64,000 bases of DNA from a bacterium (GTDB lineage: Bacteria; Patescibacteriota; Minisyncoccia; Phycocordibacterales; UBA2100): positions 94,458-158,457 of the forward strand of contig JAYPJF010000001.1 in NCBI GenBank assembly GCA_038128225.1, in the 5' to 3' direction. This document shows positions 3,121 to 28,796 of this stretch, piece after piece; position 1 is the first letter of the stretch; every line of letters starts with the position of its first letter. A program made the position numbers and the translations under genes. The notes under the pieces were generated by a model. That model was given only the letters and a program-made list of their open reading frames with translations. It did no database searches and was not told where the DNA came from.

Positions 3121-4554
3121 CTAGTTGGAAATAACTACCGAGACACTTTCAAGATTCGAGTTCGAGGGAGAACCTGTTCGCAGCGAAACAATGTATGTGC
3201 CCGCTGATGCGTATGTGTGCGTGAACTCTTTAGTCGTAACCGCGGCAGAGCACGAACCTGCACTCTGAGAAACAGCGGAGGTCCCATCACCCCACTCCAA
3301 TTCATAGTAGCTGCATGGTGACGCAATCTGGAACGTGCTTCGCATTTTGCGCGGATTATTATCAACACCAGGAACGAGTGTGAATTGCGTGTCTACCGTT
3401 GGCTGCTGTGCTGTGCCCGAGGTAGTAATTACCTGCGTCTGCGCAAGCTGCGCCTGTCCGGCACTTACCTGCTGTGCCGTCCCGCGGTATAAAGATGCAC
3501 TGAAAGATCCTCCATACTCATACCGGTGCGTTACTGAATACGTGCGCGGGGCACAAGAACCCGAATTGTAATAAAGTTCGGCATGCGTTCCGTCACCAAA
3601 AGCTAGTGTGTACGTCCCCCCCGCGCACTGTGAATCTTGGTTGATGGTCGCGCTGAATTGCGCAGTGAACGGTGCGTTGCCGCTCGCGTCTGCAACCGAG
3701 AGCGTACCGTACGCTGTTGGCGAAGGTAGTATTGGCGTTGGTGTAGGCTGAGTTGTTTGTCCGGTACCGACATTTATTACAATCGAGGAAGTGCGTGTTC
3801 CTGTTGAAATAGTAACTGGGTAGACACCAGGTACCGGATATGTGTGCACGTATGATTGCGTTAATTCATTACAGTACCCTGCCCCCACCGGTAAAATCAC
3901 GAGCGGCGATCCGTCCCCGTAATTTATAGTGTACGTAGCAGCTTGGCATGATTTAACAGTATTCGCGGTTGCGGTAATAGTTACCGTAAGAGGAGCAGGC
4001 CCAGAAACAGGCGAGGCTTTAAGGTATGCGCCTACTTGTCCTCCTGTTTGGTACCCGTATTGGTAAGCCGATTGGACAACACATCCTTCTGCAAGCGCCT
4101 TCTGTGTACGCGGACCAACGCATCCATACCATTCCCCTACCCATCCTGGCGGCGCATTAATACCGCAGGCTTTTTGAAAACTAGTAACCGCCGCTATAGT
4201 TAGAGGGCCGAACGTTCCAGAAACAACCCCCTCCGGGTAAATGTTCTTATCCTGCGCGAGAAACCGTTGCAGAGCCGCAACTTTCTCACCAGTTGCGCCT
4301 TCGTGTATGTGCTCTCCAAGAAACAGTCCTCCACTAAAAATAGAGCTGCCAGAAACACTGCCTGAAGGTAGCGTCGTTGGCGCAACAGGAGTGGTGACTG
4401 ACCCTGGAATGCTTGTTAGCTCTGCTTGAAGTGCTTGAATGCGCGCAAGAAGTGCCGAAACTTGTTGTTGTAGTTCAGTGAGGCTTTGTGCAGAGCTGAG
4501 CCATGGTACGGAAACAAGCACCGCAAGAGACAGAACGGCAAGGTATCTTTTCAT
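3121..4554 (-). CDS. Secreted protein: signal peptide, coiled coil, peptidoglycan-binding-like domain, and three PKD-like repeats
   Basis: The start is refined to the internal Met (MKRYLAVLSLAVLVSVPWLSSAQS, a signal peptide). The 4662 start would overlap the tRNA. Coiled coil LTELQQQVSALLARIQALQAEL. PGBD-like motif GEKVAALQRFLAQDKNIYPEGVVSGTFGPLTIAAVTSFQ. Three repeats carry (Y/F/W)GDG(S/T)...HTY, a PKD-like signature. Confidence 0.7.
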   Translation of the reverse strand: MKRYLAVLSLAVLVSVPWLSSAQSLTELQQQVSALLARIQALQAELTSIPGSVTTPVAPTTLPSGSVSGSSIFSGGLFLGEHIHEGATGEKVAALQRFLAQDKNIYPEGVVSGTFGPLTIAAVTSFQKACGINAPPGWVGEWYGCVGPRTQKALAEGCVVQSAYQYGYQTGGQVGAYLKASPVSGPAPLTVTITATANTVKSCQAATYTINYGDGSPLVILPVGAGYCNELTQSYVHTYPVPGVYPVTISTGTRTSSIVINVGTGQTTQPTPTPILPSPTAYGTLSVADASGNAPFTAQFSATINQDSQCAGGTYTLAFGDGTHAELYYNSGSCAPRTYSVTHRYEYGGSFSASLYRGTAQQVSAGQAQLAQTQVITTSGTAQQPTVDTQFTLVPGVDNNPRKMRSTFQIASPCSYYELEWGDGTSAVSQSAGSCSAAVTTKEFTHTYASAGTYIVSLRTGSPSNSNLESVSVVISN

Positions 4555-4603
4555 ACACGCATTGTCGCATGCTCTCTGCGTGCGACAAGATGAAATCCAC
4601 TTG

Positions 4604-4676
4604 TCCGCCCCCCTGGACTCGAACCAGGAACCGCAGAGGTATAAGCTCTGTGCTCTAACCATTAAGCTAGGGGCGG
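4604..4676 (-). tRNA. tRNA-Ile, anticodon UAU (decodes AUA)
   Basis: Cloverleaf read by hand on the minus strand. Acceptor CCGCCCC/GGGGCGG (7 bp), U8, D-stem GCTT/GAGC with a GG D-loop. Anticodon stem CAGAG/CTCTG with loop CTTATAC. Variable loop of 5 nt. T-arm CCTGG-TTCGAGT-CCAGG. Discriminator A. CCA is not encoded. Confidence 0.8.
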
Positions 4677-10823: not shown

Positions 10824-11211
10824 GGGGATGATTGGCTTCGACAAAGAGATACGGATCATACATATGCATGGCATAGCTGTGGTATCTATTCAAACTGCCA
10901 CAAACCAATAAGTGCAAACAAAACTGCACGTGGAATCTTGAGCCCAATTCAGGCAAAAGATCTCCAGTTCGCTTACGCATTAGCCTAAGCGACCGCTCGC
11001 CTATCGACATCCGATACATAGTTGCGAACGTCATACTTTCGGGTTCGACAACGCTTCAGTCTGGAAGCGACGTCTAAAGAAACATGACTCGAGTTTGTGC
11101 GATCTTGTGCATTCACAACGCGCAACCTCTAAACCTCTCTGAATGTACTACGCCTTGTAGATAGATGTGTGTTCCCTCTTTTGGACGGGGGTTCAATTCC
11201 CCCCATCTCCA
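10824..11211 (+). ncRNA. ssrA: tmRNA (ssrA), one-piece
   Basis: 5' end GGGGAUGAUUGGCUUCGAC. 3' tRNA-like end GGACGGGGGUUCAAUUCCCCCCAUCUCCA. Acceptor stem 7 bp with G3:U70. Internal tag frame ends ...AKDLQFAYALA then TAA (10986-10988). A terminator hairpin lies at 11228..11256. Located directly after smpB. Confidence 0.8.
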
Positions 11212-11227
11212 CATCAATAGACACGCT

Positions 11228-11324: not shown

Positions 11325-11756
11325 TTAACTAATAAATTTGTCCCCTTTTCGCCTTCCGACAATATAGGGAACCCCGATCGAAACGAGAGTCCAGACAGAT
11401 AGTAAACCTATTGTTGTATAGACTTCAGTATCGCTTGACTGTAGCATCAAATTAAAACCTTCCCACATAAATATTACATACACACTACTTGCGACATAAA
11501 AGAAGTACTCCTCGATAGGCAAGCCAAGAAACCTTACCCCTATTGTCTGAGAGTTGTTGAACTGCCATAACCACGTCCGGTCTTTCTTTCCGTGACGAGT
11601 AGCCCAAACGTCCCAAATACTTCCAATCAGCGTCACAAGTACTATGAACGGGGTGAGTGCCTGAAAAGAGATGCGGTCAGAAAGCAAAAACCCTGCACCT
11701 AGTGTCGGAATACAAAACACAAACAATAAACTCAGGAGATAGTGGTACTTTCTCAC
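11325..11756 (-). CDS. Small polytopic membrane protein, possibly lycopene-cyclase-domain-like
   Basis: 143 aa with 4-5 predicted transmembrane helices and a PIEEYFFY motif. The region is AT-rich compared with its neighbours. Confidence 0.35.
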   Translation of the reverse strand: MRKYHYLLSLLFVFCIPTLGAGFLLSDRISFQALTPFIVLVTLIGSIWDVWATRHGKKDRTWLWQFNNSQTIGVRFLGLPIEEYFFYVASSVYVIFMWEGFNLMLQSSDTEVYTTIGLLSVWTLVSIGVPYIVGRRKGDKFIS

Positions 11757-11800
11757 GAAAAAATTATAACAGGTTCTAACTTCTGGTTAGACTCACTAAA

Positions 11801-11832
11801 ACAAAAGCCCCTTGCGGGGCTTTTGTTTTTCC
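11801..11832 (-). terminator. Intrinsic terminator after the 11844..13202 gene
   Basis: AAAAGCCCC-ttgc-GGGGCTTTT followed by GTTTTT. Confidence 0.65.
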
Positions 11833-11843
11833 ACTTCTGGTAA

Positions 11844-13202
11844 CTATTCGACGATAACGGTAATGCTCTTGCTTGCCATTGGCTGCCCACCGGGCACGGT
11901 GCTGCCTGTTTTCACCTTTGCGGTGAAATGAATCTGATACGTTCCCGCAGTGACGAATGTGTACGTAATACTCGAGCCTACTTTTGAGGTAAGGATGCCT
12001 GTGCTCACCGTTGCCCCGCTTGTTTGCGAACCCCAGATTTCAATTGATTGTTCAAGAGTCCCTGTGCCACTCGCTGAGAACGACCACGTCCCGGATTGCC
12101 CTGCAGAAAGTTTCGTCGGACCAGATATATCGCCAATGGTCGGCTTGCTGACACAACTGCCCGTGTACACAACATTCGCGCGGGCCGCTTTTGCAGCACA
12201 TGTATTTGTATATGTTTTTGGTTCCTGCTGCATACAGAGCATTGTTGCAACGCCTGTACCCCCAGCGTTCGCACATCCAGGAGGAATCGCGCACACAGGT
12301 GCATAGTCTTGTGTACACACACCTGTTTGTGACGGTACTTGCTGCCCTCCATTTCCGCCATCGATACTCCCTGGTGACGCAGCGCCCGATGTATCAGAAG
12401 TTGAAGTTGCTGTAGGGCACATAAACGCACATGAAGGTGGTGTACGCCCGACCCAGCTGCCGTCTGAGCACTTCTTTACATCCTGCGTACACACGTCCTT
12501 GCCTGTGTTTGAGAATGTTCCCGTACAATACCCCTGCATATATACCGCACACGCTTTTGCGGTGCACACTGCTGCTCCACCAGATGTTTCGCGTGAGCAC
12601 GTATTACAACCATCGAACCACGCTTTACAAGTTGCACCCGGTACAAATGGGCGTGTGTCGTTAAACGAACTTGGGCTTATCGAATTTATACGGACAGTCG
12701 CTGTGGCATCTGTAGCTACGGTGCATCGTGTTGCTATTTTCGCGCGCGTTTGTTTCCCAACAACTCCATACCCGTTTGTACTTGGAGATCCGGAGCAGAT
12801 GCCGAGTTCTCGACATTGAAACTTTTTGACTGCAGTTTCCGTAGCTGGTCCAAATGTCCCAACAATAGTGGTGTTAAAATCTCCCGTACCCACTAAAAAA
12901 CGTTGTAGTTCAGAAACAGACGTGTCGGCTGTTGAATCTTGCCCACCACGTTTTATATCTCGAGCAATTTGCGGACACACGGTGTCTGTATGCGCTGCTG
13001 CTGTGTTTGATGTCATACGCGTGTCAACTGAAACACCTCCCGCCGCATTGATCTGCGCCTGTAGAGAATTGACGAGCGCCATAAGCGACGCGATGCTGTC
13101 CAACAAGTCAGTCTGAGTTTGTGCTCGTGCCGAAGAAACTGCAAAAAACATGCTCGCAATCATTACGCCGATCACGAGAAACTTTGATGTATAAACGCGC
13201 AT
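11844..13202 (-). CDS. Secreted protein: signal peptide, coiled coil, PG-binding-like domain, Cys-rich modules including a Kazal-like domain, and a C-terminal beta (PKD-like) domain
   Basis: The start is refined to MRVYTSKFLVIGVMIASMFFAVSSARA (signal peptide). Coiled coil LQAQINAAGG. PGBD-like motif VSELQRFLVGTGDFNTTIVGTFGPATETAVKKFQ. Kazal-like CTQDYAPVC...KTYTNTCAAKAARANVVYTGSC. The module CKAWFDGCNTCSR is shared with the 61168 gene. Confidence 0.7.
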   Translation of the reverse strand: MRVYTSKFLVIGVMIASMFFAVSSARAQTQTDLLDSIASLMALVNSLQAQINAAGGVSVDTRMTSNTAAAHTDTVCPQIARDIKRGGQDSTADTSVSELQRFLVGTGDFNTTIVGTFGPATETAVKKFQCRELGICSGSPSTNGYGVVGKQTRAKIATRCTVATDATATVRINSISPSSFNDTRPFVPGATCKAWFDGCNTCSRETSGGAAVCTAKACAVYMQGYCTGTFSNTGKDVCTQDVKKCSDGSWVGRTPPSCAFMCPTATSTSDTSGAASPGSIDGGNGGQQVPSQTGVCTQDYAPVCAIPPGCANAGGTGVATMLCMQQEPKTYTNTCAAKAARANVVYTGSCVSKPTIGDISGPTKLSAGQSGTWSFSASGTGTLEQSIEIWGSQTSGATVSTGILTSKVGSSITYTFVTAGTYQIHFTAKVKTGSTVPGGQPMASKSITVIVE

Positions 13203-13338
13203 AGTATGCATGCAATTAATAGCTAATACTTGCAGTATACCAAGATACTCTCCTTCAGGCGCTGGGCGCATGTGAATTTACTGAGTAGCAATTGACCAAG
13301 ATCATTACACTAAGCTACTATCTCAGCGGCTCGAACCC

Positions 13339-13728
13339 ATGGAGGAAAGAATGTGCGCGACCTTCGGTGACTTTGGATTTTTCGCGGGGCTACTCCATGG
13401 CTGGAGCGCGCCGTGGGTGTTGCTTCTCAGTGTTCTTTTCGATTTCATGACATACGAGCGCTGCCAGCAGAGCTGGTGGTACGACTTTGGATTTATCCTC
13501 GGAGTTTTATCCATCGGCTATCTTATCGCACGCTCGTGGTGGCTGCTGATGCTTAGTCCCCTGCTGTGGACCCTCAGTTCTGCTGTAGGTGCGGCTCCCC
13601 GTGCAGTTGTTTACGCATTTCTCGGCGCTGTGCTCGTCGGCATCTTTGGGCTAGTTGCCGGTTCTTTCTTCTTCGACTTCACCAAGTTGCATGGTGTCCC
13701 TAAGAAAAAGTTCCGCCGCCGTTCGTAG
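13339..13728 (+). CDS. Hypothetical small membrane protein (129 aa), Trp-rich
   Basis: 3-4 hydrophobic segments. A terminator lies directly downstream. Confidence 0.45.
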   Translation: MEERMCATFGDFGFFAGLLHGWSAPWVLLLSVLFDFMTYERCQQSWWYDFGFILGVLSIGYLIARSWWLLMLSPLLWTLSSAVGAAPRAVVYAFLGAVLVGIFGLVAGSFFFDFTKLHGVPKKKFRRRS

Positions 13729-13731
13729 AGT

Positions 13732-13764
13732 GAGCCCCGCATACGCGGGGCTCCTTGTTTTGTT
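13732..13764 (+). terminator. Intrinsic terminator
   Basis: GAGCCCCGC-atac-GCGGGGCTC followed by CTTGTTTTGTT. Confidence 0.65.
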
Positions 13765-13777
13765 CGCTCACGTTAAC

Positions 13778-14254
13778 TTAATACGAATATCCGTACGGAT
13801 AGGTGTAACTATACGGATACGCATAGTTGTAATTGTAGTTGTACGGGTAGTAATTTTGGTATGGGTAATATGTTTGGTTCGAATTGTAGCCTGGGTAGGT
13901 ATTCACACAGCCCGTCGTCGTATATGTCGTACAGGTATTGTACGGATAGGTGTAATTGTATGGGTATGTATAGTTTGTATTCGTGTACGGATAGTAATAA
14001 TTGTAGTTATAGTTGTACGGGTATGCGTAGGCGTTCGAATATGTGTAATTGTACTGCCCATACTGGCTACAATTTGGTGAGCCAAAGTTTGGCGTTGCTA
14101 CAACGCGATAGGTTACCTGCCCCGTGTATGGATCCCTACCCTGTACTTGATAATTGTATGTGTAGCAGTTGTTGACCGAATAATCATAGTCCGCAAATGC
14201 AAAGCCCGGAATAATCATCGCCACCGCAACCATAAATAAGGAGAGTTTTTTCAT
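13778..14254 (-). CDS. Secreted low-complexity Tyr/Asn/Thr/Pro-rich protein with YPYNYNY-type repeats
   Basis: Signal peptide MKKLSLFMVAVAMIIPGFAFA. Mature part is about 30 % Tyr, with repeated YPYNYNYNY / YTYPYNYTYPY units. The DNA carries the corresponding tandem repeats. Confidence 0.6.
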   Translation of the reverse strand: MKKLSLFMVAVAMIIPGFAFADYDYSVNNCYTYNYQVQGRDPYTGQVTYRVVATPNFGSPNCSQYGQYNYTYSNAYAYPYNYNYNYYYPYTNTNYTYPYNYTYPYNTCTTYTTTGCVNTYPGYNSNQTYYPYQNYYPYNYNYNYAYPYSYTYPYGYSY

Positions 14255-14382
14255 ATGTCTAATTATAACGCTTACATATCCTCGTCAATCTTTGCGTAAA
14301 CTCCTTTTTGTGTTGCTTTGCCGTGCGAAGGTGTGTACTGCGCACCTGCGTAGTCTAGAAGTCGCGTATAATAAATACTGTC

Positions 14383-15843
14383 ATGCTTAAGCAAATTATT
14401 GCAGCCGCATTTCTGCTTAGCGTGGGCGCTTTTTTGGTCACAATTACCACAGCAGCTGAATGTGCTGGCGAGTTCCGTAATCCGACAGAAGCGGAAATCG
14501 CTGCTGGCATCAGTACGTGTGTAAAAAAAGATGGAAGCGACCTTTTGGGTACGCTCAAACTCGAGGAGGCTGCGGAAGCAATGAAATATCTTGAGACAAA
14601 GGTGTGCTCCGGGTATGCAATTGGATACGACCCAGCAATTTCTCCAGCTGCACTTAAGGAGACACGTGTGTACTTTACTGCACAAGTAGTAAGTCCGACC
14701 GGTGGAATGTCACAAGTCTCGATTGACAGCAGGCTTGCGATCTGTGCAGCAAAATTTATACAAGCAGCCGACGAGCGTGGTCTACAGCCTTGTATCACTG
14801 CTGCGCTGAGAACTCCCGCACACCAAAAAGCAAGCTGCCTCGACCGCAGCAATGATACGGTATGTGGAAGACAGAATAACTGCACTTCGTTTAGTTATTG
14901 CCCGCACGTAAAAGGAATCGCGCTGGACATCACCTCACCAAATAAATCCGCATTAAATAGACTTGCGAAATCGTTTGGCTTAAAGATGGGGGTATCGACA
15001 AAAGACGGAGGTTTGGTTGATTTAGTTCATACACAGCCAGCATCTAATGACTGCTCCAATGGCGGTATATCTGACCGAGGATACTTGGGTTCAGGTAGCG
15101 GAGGAGGAGGACGAACCAGTGAATTACTCAGCGGGCTCGCAGGATGGCTCGGCCTAAGTGGCAAATCGCAAGAGTGCCAGCAGCTTGAGCAACAGTGCAG
15201 GACGTACCAGGGTCAGGCATGTATGACGTACGCACAAAGATGCCAAGCGGGCGACACCACCACAGCAGCAACCCCCCCGCCCAGTTCTCCCATGGTAGGC
15301 GCACCTCCTAAATCAAACACCACCGGTAGTGACAGCGGAACGAGAGTTGAAGAATTAAATGCACCAGAAGATAAAGGAAAAGACACTTCCTCTGGTGACA
15401 CGATTGAACCATCAAAAGAGTCAAAAGAATCAGATGAAAAGGATGAGGAAAAAAAACCCGTTACCGTACTCACTCCTTCATCAAGTACAATTGAAGACCT
15501 AAAAGAGATAGCCGTCCCAAAACCCACAGAAACACAAACCGCACCCTCGGGATCGAATAGTAGTTTGAGTGAAGAAGACATCGCACGCCTTGCTGCTGAA
15601 AAAACCACGATAACACCTTCGCTGCCCATCGACTCTGTTGCGCTCACGCCACAAGTTCCTGTCGGAACAACAGGGTCAGTAGACACCACATTCTCCGAAA
15701 CACCCGCTCCGTTTGTTGCCCCCACCACGCTTTCGGGCTACCAAGTCGTACTGTCGCAGATGCGCCAAACACTTGAGTGGATGCTCGCTTTTGTAACCCC
15801 AATGGGTTATACCCGTTCCGCCTGGGAAGAAAGTGTCGAATAG
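14383..15843 (+). CDS. Secreted protein with a peptidase M15 (VanY/LAS)-like zinc-binding motif and a long low-complexity Gly/Ser/Thr/Glu/Lys-rich C-terminal region
   Basis: Signal peptide. SYCPHVKGIALDI matches the M15/LAS HxxGxAxD zinc motif. A near-leaderless TATAAT lies 10 nt before the ATG. Confidence 0.45.
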   Translation: MLKQIIAAAFLLSVGAFLVTITTAAECAGEFRNPTEAEIAAGISTCVKKDGSDLLGTLKLEEAAEAMKYLETKVCSGYAIGYDPAISPAALKETRVYFTAQVVSPTGGMSQVSIDSRLAICAAKFIQAADERGLQPCITAALRTPAHQKASCLDRSNDTVCGRQNNCTSFSYCPHVKGIALDITSPNKSALNRLAKSFGLKMGVSTKDGGLVDLVHTQPASNDCSNGGISDRGYLGSGSGGGGRTSELLSGLAGWLGLSGKSQECQQLEQQCRTYQGQACMTYAQRCQAGDTTTAATPPPSSPMVGAPPKSNTTGSDSGTRVEELNAPEDKGKDTSSGDTIEPSKESKESDEKDEEKKPVTVLTPSSSTIEDLKEIAVPKPTETQTAPSGSNSSLSEEDIARLAAEKTTITPSLPIDSVALTPQVPVGTTGSVDTTFSETPAPFVAPTTLSGYQVVLSQMRQTLEWMLAFVTPMGYTRSAWEESVE

Positions 15844-25747: not shown

Positions 25748-26340
25748 GTAATATGCAACACTGTACGAATCTGAGCGTGAATCTCCTCAATAGGAGGTCT
25801 TGCATCAATATAATGCATAGTGCGCCCCCGCTCTTCAAGAAGTTTTATCGCTGGCAGCGTCTCGGTTTCATACCAATCAAGTCGTCGCTGTATTTTTTGA
25901 TCATCACTATCATCACTACGGCCGCGCCCATGAAGACGCCTAACGGCTTCTTCGCGAGGCAACTGAAGCACGACGACATGATACGGGACTCTTCCAAAAA
26001 ACTGAAGCGCATCGTCAAGCACGATTGACTGCTCAACTCGGCGGGCTACGCCGTCAATGATCAAGTGTTCTCGATTCGTAAACTCCTGCAAAAAGAAGGT
26101 GGTGATGATATGTGAGGGTATGAACGCGGGGAGCAATCCCCCAGCGTTAATCACCTCTCCCACTCGTTTACTCGCGTCTCCCGAACCTGCGGCAAATCCT
26201 CGCAATCGCTCTCCCATTTCGAGTCCGAGCACAGGAGTATCGGAGTCTCTTTCCAAAAGACCTTCAAGGAGTTTCGCCTGCGTGCCTTTACCAGCGCCTT
26301 GCGGCCCGAAGAAAACTACCGTAATTGGAGCATCAATCAT
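25744..26340 (-). CDS. adk: Adenylate kinase
   Basis: P-loop FFGPQGAGKGTQ. The start is refined to MIDAPITVVFF so it does not overlap the gmk-like gene. Confidence 0.8.
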   Translation of the reverse strand: MIDAPITVVFFGPQGAGKGTQAKLLEGLLERDSDTPVLGLEMGERLRGFAAGSGDASKRVGEVINAGGLLPAFIPSHIITTFFLQEFTNREHLIIDGVARRVEQSIVLDDALQFFGRVPYHVVVLQLPREEAVRRLHGRGRSDDSDDQKIQRRLDWYETETLPAIKLLEERGRTMHYIDARPPIEEIHAQIRTVLHIT

Positions 26341-26920
26341 GCCCGTCAATATACCCCTCTTTCTTAAGAATCTCAACCACACTTTTGATGGCCTCATCAA
26401 GTTTTCCTTGCTCGTTTTTAATAACGCGATCATACCAAGGCATGTATTCTTGAATTTCTCGCGTAGCAATTTTCTTGCGCGCTTCCCATTCTTCATCACT
26501 CATGATCTGTCGTGCCCGCACTCGTTTTTCCAATTCCTCCAGTGAGTGTGGCTGAATAAAGAGCGTCAATGCATCGAATTCTTTTTTAAGATACCGCGCG
26601 CCAATAATATCGACTTGCGCAAGGATGGTTTTTCCCTGTGCAAGTAATTCGCGCAAATGAGGCAAATAAATACCGTAGTGAGCGCCCGTTTCGACAAACC
26701 GATGTTCGGGAATTTCTCCTGCATCAAGCGCGTTGAGAAACTCCTCTTCTGTAAAAAATAAGTAGTCTTTCCCCTGCTCTTCCCCGTCTCGCCGCGTTCG
26801 CGTCGTTGCGGTAACCAAGCGCACGCACTGTGAACAGTGCTGCAATACACCTTCAAGAATTGCATTTTTTCCACTTGCAACTGTTCCCGAAATAACCACA
26901 ACTCGTGGCTTAGACTGCAT
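26333..26920 (-). CDS. Guanylate kinase-like paralog 2
   Basis: TATTRTRRDGEEQGKDYLFF, the GMP-binding block. The P-loop ISGTVASGKNA has Lys but Asn in place of Ser/Thr. Confidence 0.65.
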   Translation of the reverse strand: MQSKPRVVVISGTVASGKNAILEGVLQHCSQCVRLVTATTRTRRDGEEQGKDYLFFTEEEFLNALDAGEIPEHRFVETGAHYGIYLPHLRELLAQGKTILAQVDIIGARYLKKEFDALTLFIQPHSLEELEKRVRARQIMSDEEWEARKKIATREIQEYMPWYDRVIKNEQGKLDEAIKSVVEILKKEGYIDGHD

Positions 26921-27491
26921 ACCCCTCTGTACGCAGAATACGGATAATCGCGGTCACGGTGTCGTCAAATTCTCCATCGTCGTTAAATACAATATGATCG
27001 TATTCTTTGTCAGATTCAATGATTTCCTGTGACGCTTGTAAAAGGCGCTTGATGACTTCGTCTTTCTGGATCGTTGGGTCACGCCGCACTAAGCGGTTGT
27101 ATAGAGTAATCATTGATTTCGGCTTGATGAAAATCGTTGTCGCTCTGTACGACTGCTTGAAAAAACGGGCACCGTGCACGTCAGTATTCACAATCACTGT
27201 TTTTTCCGAAGACAATTTCGCCTCGAGGTCAGGCAGGTACGTGCCGTAATGCGCGTCACGGTCTCGAACAAAAACATGTTCAGGAATTGAGCCGTCTTGT
27301 ACATGTTCAAAAAATTGCTCTTTGCTAAAGAAATAATAATCGCGTCCTTCTTGTTCTCCAGGACGCGGCGTTCGAGTAGTTGCAGAAACAGCACGTGTAA
27401 ATTGAGGGTACGCGAGAACAAGCTCGTTGGTAAACGTTGATTCTCCGGAACCCGTTGGACCGGCAAGTACCACCACCCGTTTTCTGCTCAT
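26910..27491 (-). CDS. Guanylate kinase-like paralog 1 (P-loop lysine replaced by Glu)
   Basis: SATTRTPRPGEQEGRDYYFF. The P-loop GPTGSGEST has Glu where the Walker A Lys normally sits. Confidence 0.65.
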   Translation of the reverse strand: MSRKRVVVLAGPTGSGESTFTNELVLAYPQFTRAVSATTRTPRPGEQEGRDYYFFSKEQFFEHVQDGSIPEHVFVRDRDAHYGTYLPDLEAKLSSEKTVIVNTDVHGARFFKQSYRATTIFIKPKSMITLYNRLVRRDPTIQKDEVIKRLLQASQEIIESDKEYDHIVFNDDGEFDDTVTAIIRILRTEGYAV

Positions 27492-27521: not shown

Positions 27522-28796
27522 CTAGTATTCACGAATCGATGTCTGTGCGTCGATTTTCTTAACCACATCGAGAATGACGGAGACTGCAATGAGAAGCGCG
27601 GTTCCACCAATTGTGAGTGAAGCAATGCCTGTGACGCCTTGAATAATGATGGGCAACACCGCAATGGCGCCGAGAAAGAGTGCGCCAAAAAGTGTTATGC
27701 GAGTGATGATGTTTCCAAGATATTCTGCTGTTGTGTTACCAGGACGAACGCCAGGAATGAATGCGCCATTTTTTTGTAAGTTTTTCGCGATTTGGTTCGG
27801 CTCAAATGTAATTGCAGTATAAAAATACGTGAACACCACAACGAAAAGGAAGTACAAAGGTCCGTAAATCCAGTTGTTAGTCAACCCATTGACGATCGAC
27901 TGTGCGATAGTAGAGGCAAGACCAAGATCAAGACTTGCCAAAAAACTTGCCACCATCTGAGGGAAAAGAAGGAGCGAGAGCGCAAAAATGATTGGGATCA
28001 CACCCGCCTGGTTCACGCGAAGCGGAAGGTATGTTGATATGCCGCCGAGTACCCGACTTCCTCGAACACGGCGCGCGTACGTCACCGGAATAGGACGTTC
28101 TGCTTCAGTGATAAACACGACGCCAGCAGTTACCAGAAACGCAACCGCAACAAAACCGAGATACGTAGGAATTTGTGATACGTCAAAAGCAAATAACACT
28201 TGCGAGAGCGCTGTAGGAAGACCGGCAACGATTCCTGCAAAGATGATAATAGAGACGCCGTTACCAATTCCAAATTCAGTCATGAGCTCACCAATCCACA
28301 TGACCAAGAGCGAGCCAGCAACAATAACCATCACGTTCGTGAGAAGTGTAAAGAAATCTACATCGACAAGAATACCCTGTTGGCGCAATAAGGAAAGAAA
28401 CCCGAACCCTTGGATGAACGCGAGCGGCACTGTTAGATATCGCGTGTAGAGCATAAATTTAGCACGTCCCGCTTCTCCTTCTTCCTGATACAACGTCTTC
28501 AGTTTCGGCGAAAGCACCGTCATAAGCTGCATCACGATAGAGGCGGTAATATATGGGCCCACGCCGAGCATGACAATCGAGAGATTCGACAGACCACCCC
28601 CAGAAAAGATGTTGAGAAGCCCAAGAAATTGGTTGTTAGTGAAGAAGATTGCGAGTCGCTCAGCATCAATTCCCGGAATCGGAACGGTCGCAAGCAAGCG
28701 ATACACAATGAGCGCGCCAAATACAAAGAGTACGCGACTGCGCAACGTGTCATCGCTTATGACTGTTTTGCATTTTCGAAAAAATGACTCGATCAT
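27522..28796 (-). CDS. secY: Preprotein translocase subunit SecY
   Basis: 424 aa, 10 transmembrane helices, GNGVSIIIFAGIVAGLP motif. Confidence 0.9.
   Translation of the reverse strand: MIESFFRKCKTVISDDTLRSRVLFVFGALIVYRLLATVPIPGIDAERLAIFFTNNQFLGLLNIFSGGGLSNLSIVMLGVGPYITASIVMQLMTVLSPKLKTLYQEEGEAGRAKFMLYTRYLTVPLAFIQGFGFLSLLRQQGILVDVDFFTLLTNVMVIVAGSLLVMWIGELMTEFGIGNGVSIIIFAGIVAGLPTALSQVLFAFDVSQIPTYLGFVAVAFLVTAGVVFITEAERPIPVTYARRVRGSRVLGGISTYLPLRVNQAGVIPIIFALSLLLFPQMVASFLASLDLGLASTIAQSIVNGLTNNWIYGPLYFLFVVVFTYFYTAITFEPNQIAKNLQKNGAFIPGVRPGNTTAEYLGNIITRITLFGALFLGAIAVLPIIIQGVTGIASLTIGGTALLIAVSVILDVVKKIDAQTSIREY

What the first reader, a model, noticed from the sequence alone, without database searches (positions are those of the whole stretch)
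13778..14254. Extremely Tyr-rich secreted protein with YPYNYNY repeats
The mature protein of about 137 aa is dominated by Tyr, Asn, Thr and Pro in short repeats (YPYNYNYNYYYPYTNTNYTYPYNYTYPYN... and again ...YYPYNYNYNYAYPYSYTYPYGYSY). It has a clean signal peptide, its own near-leaderless TATAAT promoter region, and an adjacent terminator. The composition resembles adhesive, amyloid or prion-like proteins and Tyr-rich matrix proteins. It sits in a secreted/cell-wall neighbourhood (11844..15843).
Basis: seen in the sequence. Interest (0 to 1): 0.65.

Follow-up and report, generated by a model that had tools for sequence, protein, structure and literature searches.

The report
Conserved tyrosine-rich secreted CPR protein
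A small secreted protein that is one-third tyrosine is a real gene under strong purifying selection in an ultra-small (Kaiserbacteria-like) bacterium; it belongs to no known family, probably acts as a sticky surface or binding protein, and its function is untested.

Summary
The ORF at 13778..14254 (-) is exactly as described. It encodes 158 aa with an AFA|D signal peptide. The mature chain is 137 aa with 45 Tyr (33%) and no E, H, I, K, L, M or W. Y-x-Y alternation far exceeds chance. It is a real gene. A syntenic orthologue, also 158 aa, lies on a related Logan contig (L086). The two differ at 17/12/76 first/second/third codon positions. Synonymous sites are saturated (pS 0.77) while pN is 0.09. 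Protein identity is 83%, against 89% for IF3 and 46-49% for the flanking genes. The TTGAC-15 nt-TATAAT-7/8 nt-ATG leaderless promoter and the downstream hairpin are conserved too. The antisense ORF is not conserved. No other relative turned up in Pfam, NCBIfam, PDB, two billion-scale protein sets, JGI metagenomes, IMG/VR or 80 Kaiserbacteria loci. The N-terminal 60 residues (94% conserved, bracketed by two Cys, AF2 beta-hairpin) align in register with bacterial cadherin-like/Big_9 adhesin repeats. hhalign gives 84-93% probability and 0 of 400 shuffles reach the score. The Pfam models themselves do not hit. The most likely role is an extracellular adhesive or cohesive protein. Amyloid formation and cross-linking remain speculation.

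The parts
14283..14288 (-). -35-like hexamer TTGACG, 15 nt upstream of the -10 box
   Evidence: Read from the sequence. The L086 orthologue has TTGACT with the same 15-nt spacing. The 16-18-nt consensus scan does not report it.
14262..14267 (-). -10 box TATAAT, 7 nt before the ATG, implying a leaderless or near-leaderless mRNA
   Evidence: TANNNT hexamers start at -12/-13 in 12 of 62 long ORFs of the window against 1.3 expected. TATAAT lies 8 nt before the ATG in L086.
14192..14254 (-). Signal peptide, residues 1-21: MKKLSLFMVAVAMIIPGFAFA, with cleavage before D22
   Evidence: Read from the sequence: KK n-region, 15-residue hydrophobic core, A-F-A at -3..-1, no lipobox Cys. 19 of 21 residues are identical in the orthologue. 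SecY is encoded at 27522..28796.
14030..14191 (-). N-terminal domain, residues 22-75: C30 and C62 bracket a predicted beta-hairpin (31-40 / 47-55); possibly a relic of a cadherin-like/Big_9 fold
   Evidence: 49 of 52 aa are identical to L086, with codon-position differences of 2/1/32. AF2 pLDDT is 83-87 for the hairpin. hhalign to Big_9/Cadherin_4 units gives probability 84-93%, and 0 of 400 shuffles reach the score.
13934..14029 (-). Tyr repeat arm 1, residues 76-107: (Y-x)n with x = N, P, T, A
   Evidence: This is the most variable part: 16 of 29 residues identical, with in-frame indels.
13907..13933 (-). Small Cys loop, residues 108-116: C-T-T-Y-T-T-T-G-C
   Evidence: Both Cys and 12 of 14 surrounding residues are conserved in L086.
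13781..13906 (-). Tyr repeat arm 2, residues 117-158, ending in the invariant YTYPYGYSY-COOH
   Evidence: 31 of 37 residues are identical to L086. It contains a run of 23 residues with Tyr at every other position.
13732..13753 (.). GC-rich hairpin between the two convergent genes (GAGCCCCGC-ATAC-GCGGGGCTC)
   Evidence: The terminator scan reports it on the + strand, with a T-run on that strand only. The same hairpin core lies at the same place in L086.
13339..13728 (+). Convergent neighbour encoding a 129-aa multi-pass membrane protein; the only neighbour that stays adjacent in the orthologous locus. A functional link is not shown.
   Evidence: Its 126-aa orthologue is next to the Tyr-rich gene in L086 at 46% identity. 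It has no Pfam or NCBIfam hit. It hits phrog_30702 (unknown function) at E 8.6e-7.

Best explanation
Shown: 13778..14254 (-) is a genuine protein-coding gene under strong purifying selection. The genome is a Candidatus Kaiserbacteria-like member of the Patescibacteria (CPR). By its promoter geometry the mRNA is leaderless. The product carries a classical Sec/signal-peptidase-I signal peptide. The mature chain is 137 aa (16.7 kDa), almost uncharged and 33% Tyr. It has four parts: a highly conserved N-terminal domain bracketed by two Cys, a first Tyr-alternating arm, a C-x7-C loop, and a second Tyr-alternating arm.

Inferred: the N-terminal domain is a much-diverged single copy of the bacterial cadherin-like/Big_9 Ig-type repeat found in giant adhesins, and it provides specific binding. 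The (Y-x)n segments are cut into 5-9-residue pieces by conserved YPY. Each piece presents one all-tyrosine face. These faces stick by pi-stacking, CH-pi contacts and hydrogen bonds, either to each other or to polysaccharide surfaces such as the cell's own wall or a host cell.

The protein would then act as an extracellular adhesive or cohesive coat protein of an episymbiotic cell. Oxidative dityrosine cross-linking or cross-beta assembly are possible extras, not required parts of the model. The confidence given (0.4) is for the whole statement including the inferred mechanism; the 'shown' part alone I rate above 0.95.
For: Gene reality:
- The orthologue in L086 has the same length.
- Codon-position differences are 17/12/76, with pS 0.77 (saturated) against pN 0.09.
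- Identity is 83%, against IF3 89%, AI-2E transporter 78%, mem129 46% and p486 49%.
- Synonymous codon choice matches the genome: TAC 58% against 53%, AAC 48% against 53%.
- The promoter and hairpin are conserved.
- The same sequence was assembled independently from at least three sequencing runs at 99.98-100% identity.

Secretion:
- The signal peptide is conserved with an AxA site.
- SecY is present.

Tyr face:
- Y-x-Y occurs 28 times against 9.8 expected, and YY 4 times against 14.5.
- 39 of 45 Tyr and 12 of 13 Pro are conserved.
- The x positions swap freely among N, T, S, A, G and Q.

Adhesin-like domain:
- In the exhaustive HMMER search the top five of six hits among 1.84 billion proteins are multi-repeat adhesin-type proteins. 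Four of them contain Cadherin_4/Big_9 repeats (confirmed by Pfam for P0002 and P0004; inferred for P0003 and P0005 from their 91-residue repeat units, which align with the confirmed ones in A2).
- Residues 22-84 align gap-free and in register with every 91-aa unit.
- The query keeps 5 of the 7 invariant family columns in the aligned range (my reading).
- hhalign probability is 84.5% for the whole mature chain and 92.9% for the N-domain, score 38.4. Shuffled controls give 9.6 +/- 2.05 with a maximum of 17.8 in 400 trials.

Background knowledge (mine, not tested here):
- Alternating polar/non-polar patterns drive beta-sheet self-assembly (Hecht-lab work).
- Tyr acts as the 'sticker' in adhesive and phase-separating proteins.
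- Mussel foot proteins carry more than 10-15 mol% Tyr (PMC4220933).
Against: - No experiment and no expression data exist. The function rests on composition and on one remote similarity.
- The Pfam Big_9 and Cadherin_4 models give no hit even at E <= 10.
- The repeat units used for hhalign were chosen because they matched the query, so there is selection bias.
- Single stretches score 22 bits or less, and one hit in the same search (P0006) is plainly spurious.
- The acidic Ca-binding loop of the family (DPDGD) reads DPYTGQ here.
- AF2 without an alignment gives pLDDT of about 30 for residues 64-158, so nothing is known about the fold of the arms.
- No tyrosinase, laccase or peroxidase was seen among the window genes scanned, but not all were scanned.
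- A Tyr-rich diatom protein chosen on the same logic proved not to be an adhesive (PMC4220933).
- Only two genomes carry the gene.
Confidence: 0.4

Rival explanations
1. It is a subunit of a functional amyloid, curli-like. After secretion the (Y-x)n arms stack into cross-beta fibrils with tyrosine ladders and form a matrix or sheath.
For: There is strict aromatic/polar alternation over up to 23 residues. The composition is N/Q/Y/T/S-rich and uncharged, like prion-forming domains (my knowledge). The protein has a Sec signal peptide. A charge-hydropathy estimate places it on the disordered side, 0.361 against a boundary of 0.416.
Against: There are twelve conserved prolines, eight of them inside the arms at 6-10-residue spacing, and proline breaks cross-beta stacks. 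No regular 19-23-residue imperfect repeats exist. No CsgA, FapC or TasA family hit was found. No nucleator or secretion partner genes lie nearby. The best-conserved part is the non-repetitive N-domain, not the arms.
Confidence: 0.15
2. The whole mature chain is a compact folded beta-sandwich or beta-meander in which tyrosine replaces the usual aliphatic core residues. It would be a small soluble binding module, lectin-like or receptor-binding, and not a sticky low-complexity protein.
For: The mature chain has no I, L, M or W, and only 6 V and 1 F, in both orthologues. Tyr is therefore the only plentiful core-former. Alternation is what buried/exposed positions in beta-strands look like. The Big_9 alignment runs into the first Tyr arm, with DSFTF aligned to YNYNY. 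The length is conserved at exactly 158 aa despite five indels. Two conserved Cys pairs are present. The level of sequence conservation is unusual for a disordered region.
Against: AF2 gives no confident fold beyond one hairpin, but it ran without an alignment. Repeat arm 1 tolerates indels and is 45% substituted. No structural precedent was checked.
Confidence: 0.2
3. It is a secreted antimicrobial or host-directed peptide (bacteriocin-like), and the conserved neighbouring small membrane protein is its immunity factor.
For: A small secreted protein and a small multi-pass membrane protein remain adjacent in both genomes while other neighbours change. The membrane protein evolves fast, at 46% identity. 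Gly/Tyr-rich secreted antimicrobial peptides exist in nematodes and arthropods (my knowledge).
Against: The two genes are convergent, not co-transcribed. The mature protein is uncharged and not amphipathic. There is no bacteriocin family hit, no double-glycine leader and no ABC exporter nearby. PADLOC found nothing. 83-94% conservation is unusual for a toxin in an arms race.
Confidence: 0.07
4. It is not a gene. Either it is a chance open frame in low-complexity DNA, or the real gene is the antisense ORF 13655..14080 (+).
For: No homologue exists in the large protein databases. The exact sequence is absent from the 15-billion-protein collection. The in-register antisense frame is open for 141 codons.
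Against: The substitution pattern of 17/12/76 and pN/pS of about 0.12 apply in this frame. The antisense ORF starts inside the 13339..13728 gene and spans the hairpin. It shrinks to 72 aa in L086. The signal peptide, start codon and promoter are conserved. No shuffle out of 2000 reaches the ORF length.
Confidence: 0.02

Closest known systems
Bacterial cadherin-like / Big_9 repeats (Pfam PF17803 Cadherin_4, PF17963 Big_9) of giant surface adhesins
   Same: Mature residues 1-63 align gap-free with each 91-aa unit. Shared positions are D-x-[FY]-x-V at the start, G-x-D-P, [IV]-T-[FY]-x-[LV]-V, P-x-F-G and G-x-Y-x-Y-T. hhalign probability is 84-93%. Both are extracellular.
   Different: The protein has a single copy in a 137-aa chain, not tens of tandem copies. 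The Pfam models do not detect it. The acidic Ca-binding loop is lost. Two Cys are added. The last strands are replaced by Tyr-x repeats, and a 51-residue Tyr tail follows.
Mussel foot proteins mfp-3/mfp-5 and other Tyr/DOPA-rich underwater adhesives
   Same: They are small secreted proteins with a signal peptide, very high Tyr, and abundant Asn and Gly. Tyr is the adhesive and cohesive residue (PMC4220933 and my knowledge).
   Different: Those proteins are eukaryotic, strongly cationic (Lys/Arg-rich) and depend on tyrosinase-made DOPA. This protein has no Lys, 2 Arg and a pI of about 4.4. It has 33% Tyr against more than 10-15% in the mussel proteins. It shows strict Y-x alternation. No modifying enzyme was identified.
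Bacillus subtilis spore-coat proteins CotC/CotU (my knowledge)
   Same: They are small bacterial structural proteins with about 30% Tyr, thought to be cross-linked in an extracellular layer.
   Different: CotC/CotU are Tyr+Lys+Asp-rich, have no signal peptide and are deposited inside the mother cell. No sequence similarity was found, and there is no NCBIfam or Pfam hit.
Curli CsgA and other secreted functional amyloids
   Same: Both are Sec-secreted, Asn/Gln-rich, built from repeated beta-prone segments and active extracellularly.
   Different: CsgA has five regular 19-23-residue repeats, few prolines and dedicated csgBEFG partners. None of these features is present here.
Designed alternating polar/non-polar beta-sheet proteins (Hecht laboratory) and silk-type (GAGAGY) crystallites (my knowledge)
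   Same: Short strands with strict binary alternation are separated by turn residues, and one face is homogeneous.
   Different: Those are synthetic or eukaryotic fibre proteins. Here the non-polar face is exclusively Tyr and the turns are YPY.

Membership tests
Sec/signal-peptidase-I secreted proteins | N-terminal positive n-region, hydrophobic h-region of 10-15 residues, small residues at -3 and -1, no lipobox Cys | tested here: met
   The peptide is MKK-LSLFMVAVAMIIPGF-AFA|D. By inspection 19 of 21 residues are conserved in L086. No SignalP run was possible.
Big_9 / Cadherin_4 bacterial cadherin-like domain | Match to the Pfam model above the gathering score | tested here: not met
   hmmscan against Pfam at E <= 10 returns no family.
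Big_9 / Cadherin_4 bacterial cadherin-like domain | In-register profile similarity over the domain core, with the invariant positions kept | tested here: inconclusive
   hhalign probability is 84.5-92.9% and 0 of 400 shuffles reach the score. Library-wide HMMER E-values are 1e-8 to 5e-5, but they sum many stretches of 22 bits or less. The template units were selected by similarity to the query.
Big_9 / Cadherin_4 bacterial cadherin-like domain | Acidic D-x-D-x-D-type loop and tandem arrays within large adhesins | tested here: not met
   The loop reads GRDPYTGQ in both orthologues. There is one copy in a 137-aa mature protein.
Curli-type functional amyloid (CsgA/FapC/TasA) | Family model hit, or regular imperfect strand-loop-strand repeats | tested here: not met
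   No Pfam or NCBIfam hit. TRF and the repeat finder show no regular long repeats.
Curli-type functional amyloid (CsgA/FapC/TasA) | Neighbouring nucleator or export genes | tested here: not met
   The neighbours are a small membrane protein, a PG_binding_1 protein, an unassigned 486-aa secreted protein and an AI-2E transporter.
Curli-type functional amyloid (CsgA/FapC/TasA) | Cross-beta fibrils that bind ThT or Congo red | not testable with these tools
   This needs purified protein.
DOPA/Tyr adhesive proteins (mussel-foot type) | Small secreted protein with more than 10 mol% Tyr | tested here: met
   33 mol% Tyr, 137 aa, signal peptide present. The threshold is as quoted in PMC4220933.
DOPA/Tyr adhesive proteins (mussel-foot type) | Cationic, Lys/Arg-rich composition | tested here: not met
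   0 Lys, 2 Arg, 3 Asp, calculated pI 4.4.
DOPA/Tyr adhesive proteins (mussel-foot type) | Enzymatic conversion of Tyr to DOPA, or dityrosine cross-links | not tested
   No tyrosinase, laccase or peroxidase was found among the 27 window proteins scanned with Pfam. The rest of the genome was not available.
CotC/CotU Tyr-rich spore-coat proteins | Sequence similarity and Tyr+Lys+Asp-rich composition | tested here: not met
   No NCBIfam or Pfam hit. No Lys.

The most novel reading that the evidence does not exclude
This is a previously unseen protein architecture. A cadherin-like fold has had its hydrophobic core and its C-terminal extension rebuilt almost entirely from tyrosine (no I, L, M or W). 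The result is continuous tyrosine ladders. These would serve a CPR episymbiont as a dedicated host-attachment glue, possibly hardened by dityrosine cross-links or made redox-active by pi-stacking.
Probability: 0.12. Interest if true: 0.8.

Novelty: new variant of a known kind. Interest (0 to 1): 0.5.

Why it matters
Patescibacteria (CPR) are mostly uncultured cells dependent on a host, and how they stick to hosts or build their envelope is largely unknown. Their genomes are full of unannotated small secreted proteins. This one stands out on three counts. Its composition is extreme, at 33% Tyr. It is conserved about as well as translation factor IF3 while its neighbours drift. It is invisible to every family database. 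If it is a surface adhesive, it is a concrete candidate that could be expressed and tested for CPR attachment. It would also be a natural example of a tyrosine-only sticky or core motif, of interest for protein materials. If it is merely a lineage-specific coat protein, it remains a curiosity found in two genomes.

Tried and rejected
- Family and structure searches with the full protein: Pfam, NCBIfam, PHROGs, PADLOC and PDB sequence searches gave nothing.
- Word-indexed search of 5.8 billion proteins, with the single sequence and with the two-sequence alignment: no hit.
- Exhaustive HMMER over 1.84 billion representatives: six weak multi-stretch hits. One is clearly spurious (P0006). Five are repeat adhesins, kept only as a remote-similarity lead.
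- The exact sequence is not in the 15-billion-protein collection.
- JGI metagenome contigs (two scans), IMG/VR and INPHARED phages: no relative.
- 80 Kaiserbacteria/Paceibacterota loci around IF3: no Tyr-rich ORF and no tblastn hit. The closest syntenic loci (L004, L007, L041) carry other genes at this position.
- The identical-strain contigs L001-L003 gave no information on selection.
- AF2 on the single sequence, run twice, showed only a hairpin.
- A recent DNA tandem-repeat origin is rejected.
- NCT-codon avoidance (0 of 47) looked odd but is not shared by the orthologue, so it is treated as chance.
- p486 as an M15/LAS peptidase: seen only by eye, with no Pfam, NCBIfam or PDB support.
- Literature searches for Tyr-rich proteins in Patescibacteria and for the SRA run numbers found nothing.

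Full report
OBSERVATION. It contains 45 Tyr, 21 Asn, 18 Thr and 13 Pro. After removal of a 21-residue signal peptide (MKKLSLFMVAVAMIIPGFAFA|D) the mature chain is 137 aa and 16.7 kDa, with a pI of about 4.4 and 33% Tyr. It has no Glu, His, Ile, Lys, Leu, Met or Trp. This is far outside the local norm. Tyr makes up 3.1% of 15 long genes of the window. The best 40-residue stretch of this ORF has 18 Tyr, against a maximum of 7 anywhere else in the six-frame translation.

The tyrosines alternate. Y-x-Y occurs 28 times (9.8 +/- 2.7 expected from the composition) and YY only 4 times (14.5 +/- 2.6 expected). None of 20000 shuffles reaches either value. The DNA is not a tandem repeat: only two 12-nt arrays of about 2.2 copies were found, and internal copies are 60-85% identical. 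Tyr codons are mixed (26 TAC, 19 TAT) in the genome's own proportions. No dinucleotide-preserving shuffle out of 2000 gives an open frame this long.

ORGANISM. IF3, encoded 3 kb away, finds only Candidatus Kaiserbacteria/Paceibacterota (Patescibacteria, CPR) MAGs, at 76% identity or less. The window also carries tmRNA, SmpB, SecY, ComEC and a ribosomal-protein cluster. The same sequence was assembled at 99.98-100% identity from at least three independent sequencing runs, so it is not an assembly artefact.

IS IT A GENE? Databases did not help.
- Pfam, NCBIfam, PHROGs, PADLOC and PDB gave no hit.
- The 5.8-billion-protein index gave nothing.
- JGI metagenome contigs, IMG/VR and phage genomes gave nothing.
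- 80 related IF3 loci gave nothing.

The decisive evidence came through the neighbouring gene. The 486-aa protein next door has one relative at 40% identity (P0008). The contig of that relative, L086, shows this order: tmRNA, a 126-aa membrane protein, a 158-aa minus-strand ORF, a ceramidase-like gene, the p486 homologue, an AI-2E transporter, IF3, L20.

That 158-aa ORF is an orthologue with 83% identity. The two genes differ at 17, 12 and 76 first, second and third codon positions. pS is 0.77, which is saturated as in every gene of the locus, while pN is 0.09. The protein is thus about as conserved as IF3 (89%) and better conserved than the AI-2E transporter (78%). The flanking mem129 and p486 proteins are only 46% and 49% identical.

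Residues 22-75 are 49/52 identical although 32 of 52 third positions differ. The in-register antisense ORF (141 aa in the window) starts inside the upstream gene and spans the terminator hairpin. It is cut to 72 aa in L086. The minus-strand ORF is therefore a real gene under strong purifying selection.

EXPRESSION SIGNALS. Upstream lies TTGACG, then 15 nt, TATAAT, 7 nt and the ATG, with no Shine-Dalgarno sequence. L086 has TTGACT, 15 nt, TATAAT, 8 nt and the ATG, although a different gene lies upstream there. In the window, TANNNT hexamers start at -12/-13 in 12 of 62 long ORFs (1.3 expected). Leaderless mRNAs therefore look like the norm for operon-first genes in this genome. The hairpin at 13732-13753 lies between the two convergent genes and is conserved in L086. 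Its T-run is on the + strand, so it is primarily the terminator of 13339..13728.

ANATOMY.
1. Signal peptide, residues 1-21.
2. N-domain, residues 22-75. C30 and C62 bracket a beta-hairpin, the only part AF2 predicts with confidence (pLDDT 83-87).
3. Tyr arm 1, residues 76-107. It is variable, with in-frame indels.
4. A conserved C-x7-C loop, residues 108-116.
5. Tyr arm 2, residues 117-158. It ends in the invariant YTYPYGYSY.

Between the orthologues 39 of 45 Tyr and 12 of 13 Pro are conserved. The x positions swap among N, T, S, A, G and Q. Conserved YPY motifs divide the arms into alternating segments of 5-9 residues.

A LEAD ON ANCESTRY. The exhaustive HMMER search of 1.84 billion representatives returned six hits (E 4e-10 to 2e-4).
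- One (P0006) is a spurious repeat.
- One (P0001) is a very large protein with a different, roughly 108-residue repeat that I did not assign to a family.
- Four contain bacterial cadherin-like Cadherin_4/Big_9 repeats. I confirmed this with Pfam for P0002 and P0004 only. For P0003 and P0005 it rests on their 91-residue units aligning with the confirmed ones.

Each single stretch is weak, at 22 bits or less. Even so, residues 22-84 align without gaps and in register with every 91-residue unit, starting at the mature N-terminus. By my reading, the query keeps the family's invariant D, P, G, G and Y positions.

Profile-profile comparison gives 84.5% probability for the whole mature chain and 92.9% for the N-domain. 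The score is 38.4, against 9.6 +/- 2.05 (maximum 17.8) for 400 column shuffles and 10.5 for the reversed sequence.

There are caveats. The units were picked because they matched the query. The Pfam models themselves do not hit. The acidic loop DPDGD is DPYTGQ here. I rate true homology at roughly 60-65%.

MECHANISM (inferred). The protein is exported by Sec and released or held non-covalently; it has no LPXTG motif, no lipobox and no transmembrane segment. The highly constrained N-domain most likely binds something specific. The Tyr arms present all-tyrosine faces suited to pi-stacking, CH-pi contacts with sugars and hydrogen bonding.

My best reading, at about 0.4 confidence, is an extracellular adhesive or cohesive coat protein of an episymbiotic cell.

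Rivals:
- A compact sandwich with a tyrosine core acting as a soluble binding module (0.2).
- A curli-like amyloid (0.15), weakened by the conserved prolines and the missing partner genes.
- A bacteriocin with mem129 as its immunity factor (0.07).
- Not a gene (0.02).

A published case of a Tyr-rich diatom protein selected on the same logic, which proved not to be an adhesive (PMC4220933), is a reminder that composition alone is weak evidence.

NEIGHBOURHOOD. The product of 11844..13271 has a PG_binding_1 domain. p486 is secreted-looking but has no family assignment. These neighbours are not conserved next to the orthologue. Only the small membrane protein is. The 'cell-wall neighbourhood' is therefore weak context.

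VERDICT. The gene is real, conserved, secreted and without family assignment. It is a new variant of the loosely defined class of Tyr-rich secreted structural or adhesive proteins, with a possible cadherin-like ancestry. Its function remains untested, and it is known from only two genomes.

Noticed in passing
window, starts of 62 long ORFs (e.g. 9163, 11756, 14254, 14383, 24962, 43514, 61113): TANNNT -10-like hexamers begin 12-13 nt before the start codon in 12 of 62 ORFs (1.3 expected), and few genes have a Shine-Dalgarno sequence. Leaderless mRNAs seem common in this Kaiserbacteria-like genome. A second peak at -6 (8 genes) probably marks mis-called starts.
   Followed up: partly
window 4603-4676 (-): There is a tRNA-Ile with anticodon UAU, which is unusual because most bacteria read AUA with a lysidine-modified CAU. 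It overlaps the annotated 5' end of ORF 3121..4662 (PKD + PG_binding_1), so that ORF's true start must lie further downstream.
   Followed up: no
window 13339-13728 (+); L086 527-907: The 129-aa membrane protein convergent with the Tyr-rich gene matches phage family phrog_30702 (unknown function) at E 8.6e-7. It keeps a Y-[ED]-R-C-Q-Q-S-W-W-Y-D loop in its orthologue. tblastn against phage genomes found nothing.
   Followed up: partly
window 14383-15843 (+); L041 7284-9964; L007 1989-4811; L004 6710-8131: The 486-aa secreted protein has no Pfam, NCBIfam or PDB hit, yet relatives occur in 18 of 80 Kaiserbacteria IF3 loci, often as tandem paralogues. By eye it carries an R-x-x-x-x-Q ... H-x-x-G-x-A-x-D pattern reminiscent of LAS/M15 cell-wall peptidases.
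   Followed up: partly
window 26333-26920 and 26910-27491 (-): Two adjacent guanylate-kinase paralogues lie next to adenylate kinase downstream of secY.
   Followed up: no
window 13778-14254 (-): No NCT codon is used among 47 Thr/Pro/Ser/Ala codons, against a genome frequency of about 20%. The L086 orthologue does use CCT and ACT, so this is probably chance.
   Followed up: yes
window 10824-11214 (+): The tmRNA has a long tag peptide, ANKTARGILSPIQAKDLQFAYALA. In L086 the tmRNA gene lies directly next to the membrane-protein/Tyr-rich pair, without the two genes (11325..13271) that separate them in the window.
   Followed up: no
window 11844-13271 (-): This 475-aa secreted protein combines PG_binding_1 with a Cys-rich middle region (weak Pacifastin-like hit) and a PKD-like C-terminus. 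A second PG_binding_1 + PKD protein is encoded at 3121..4662.
   Followed up: no
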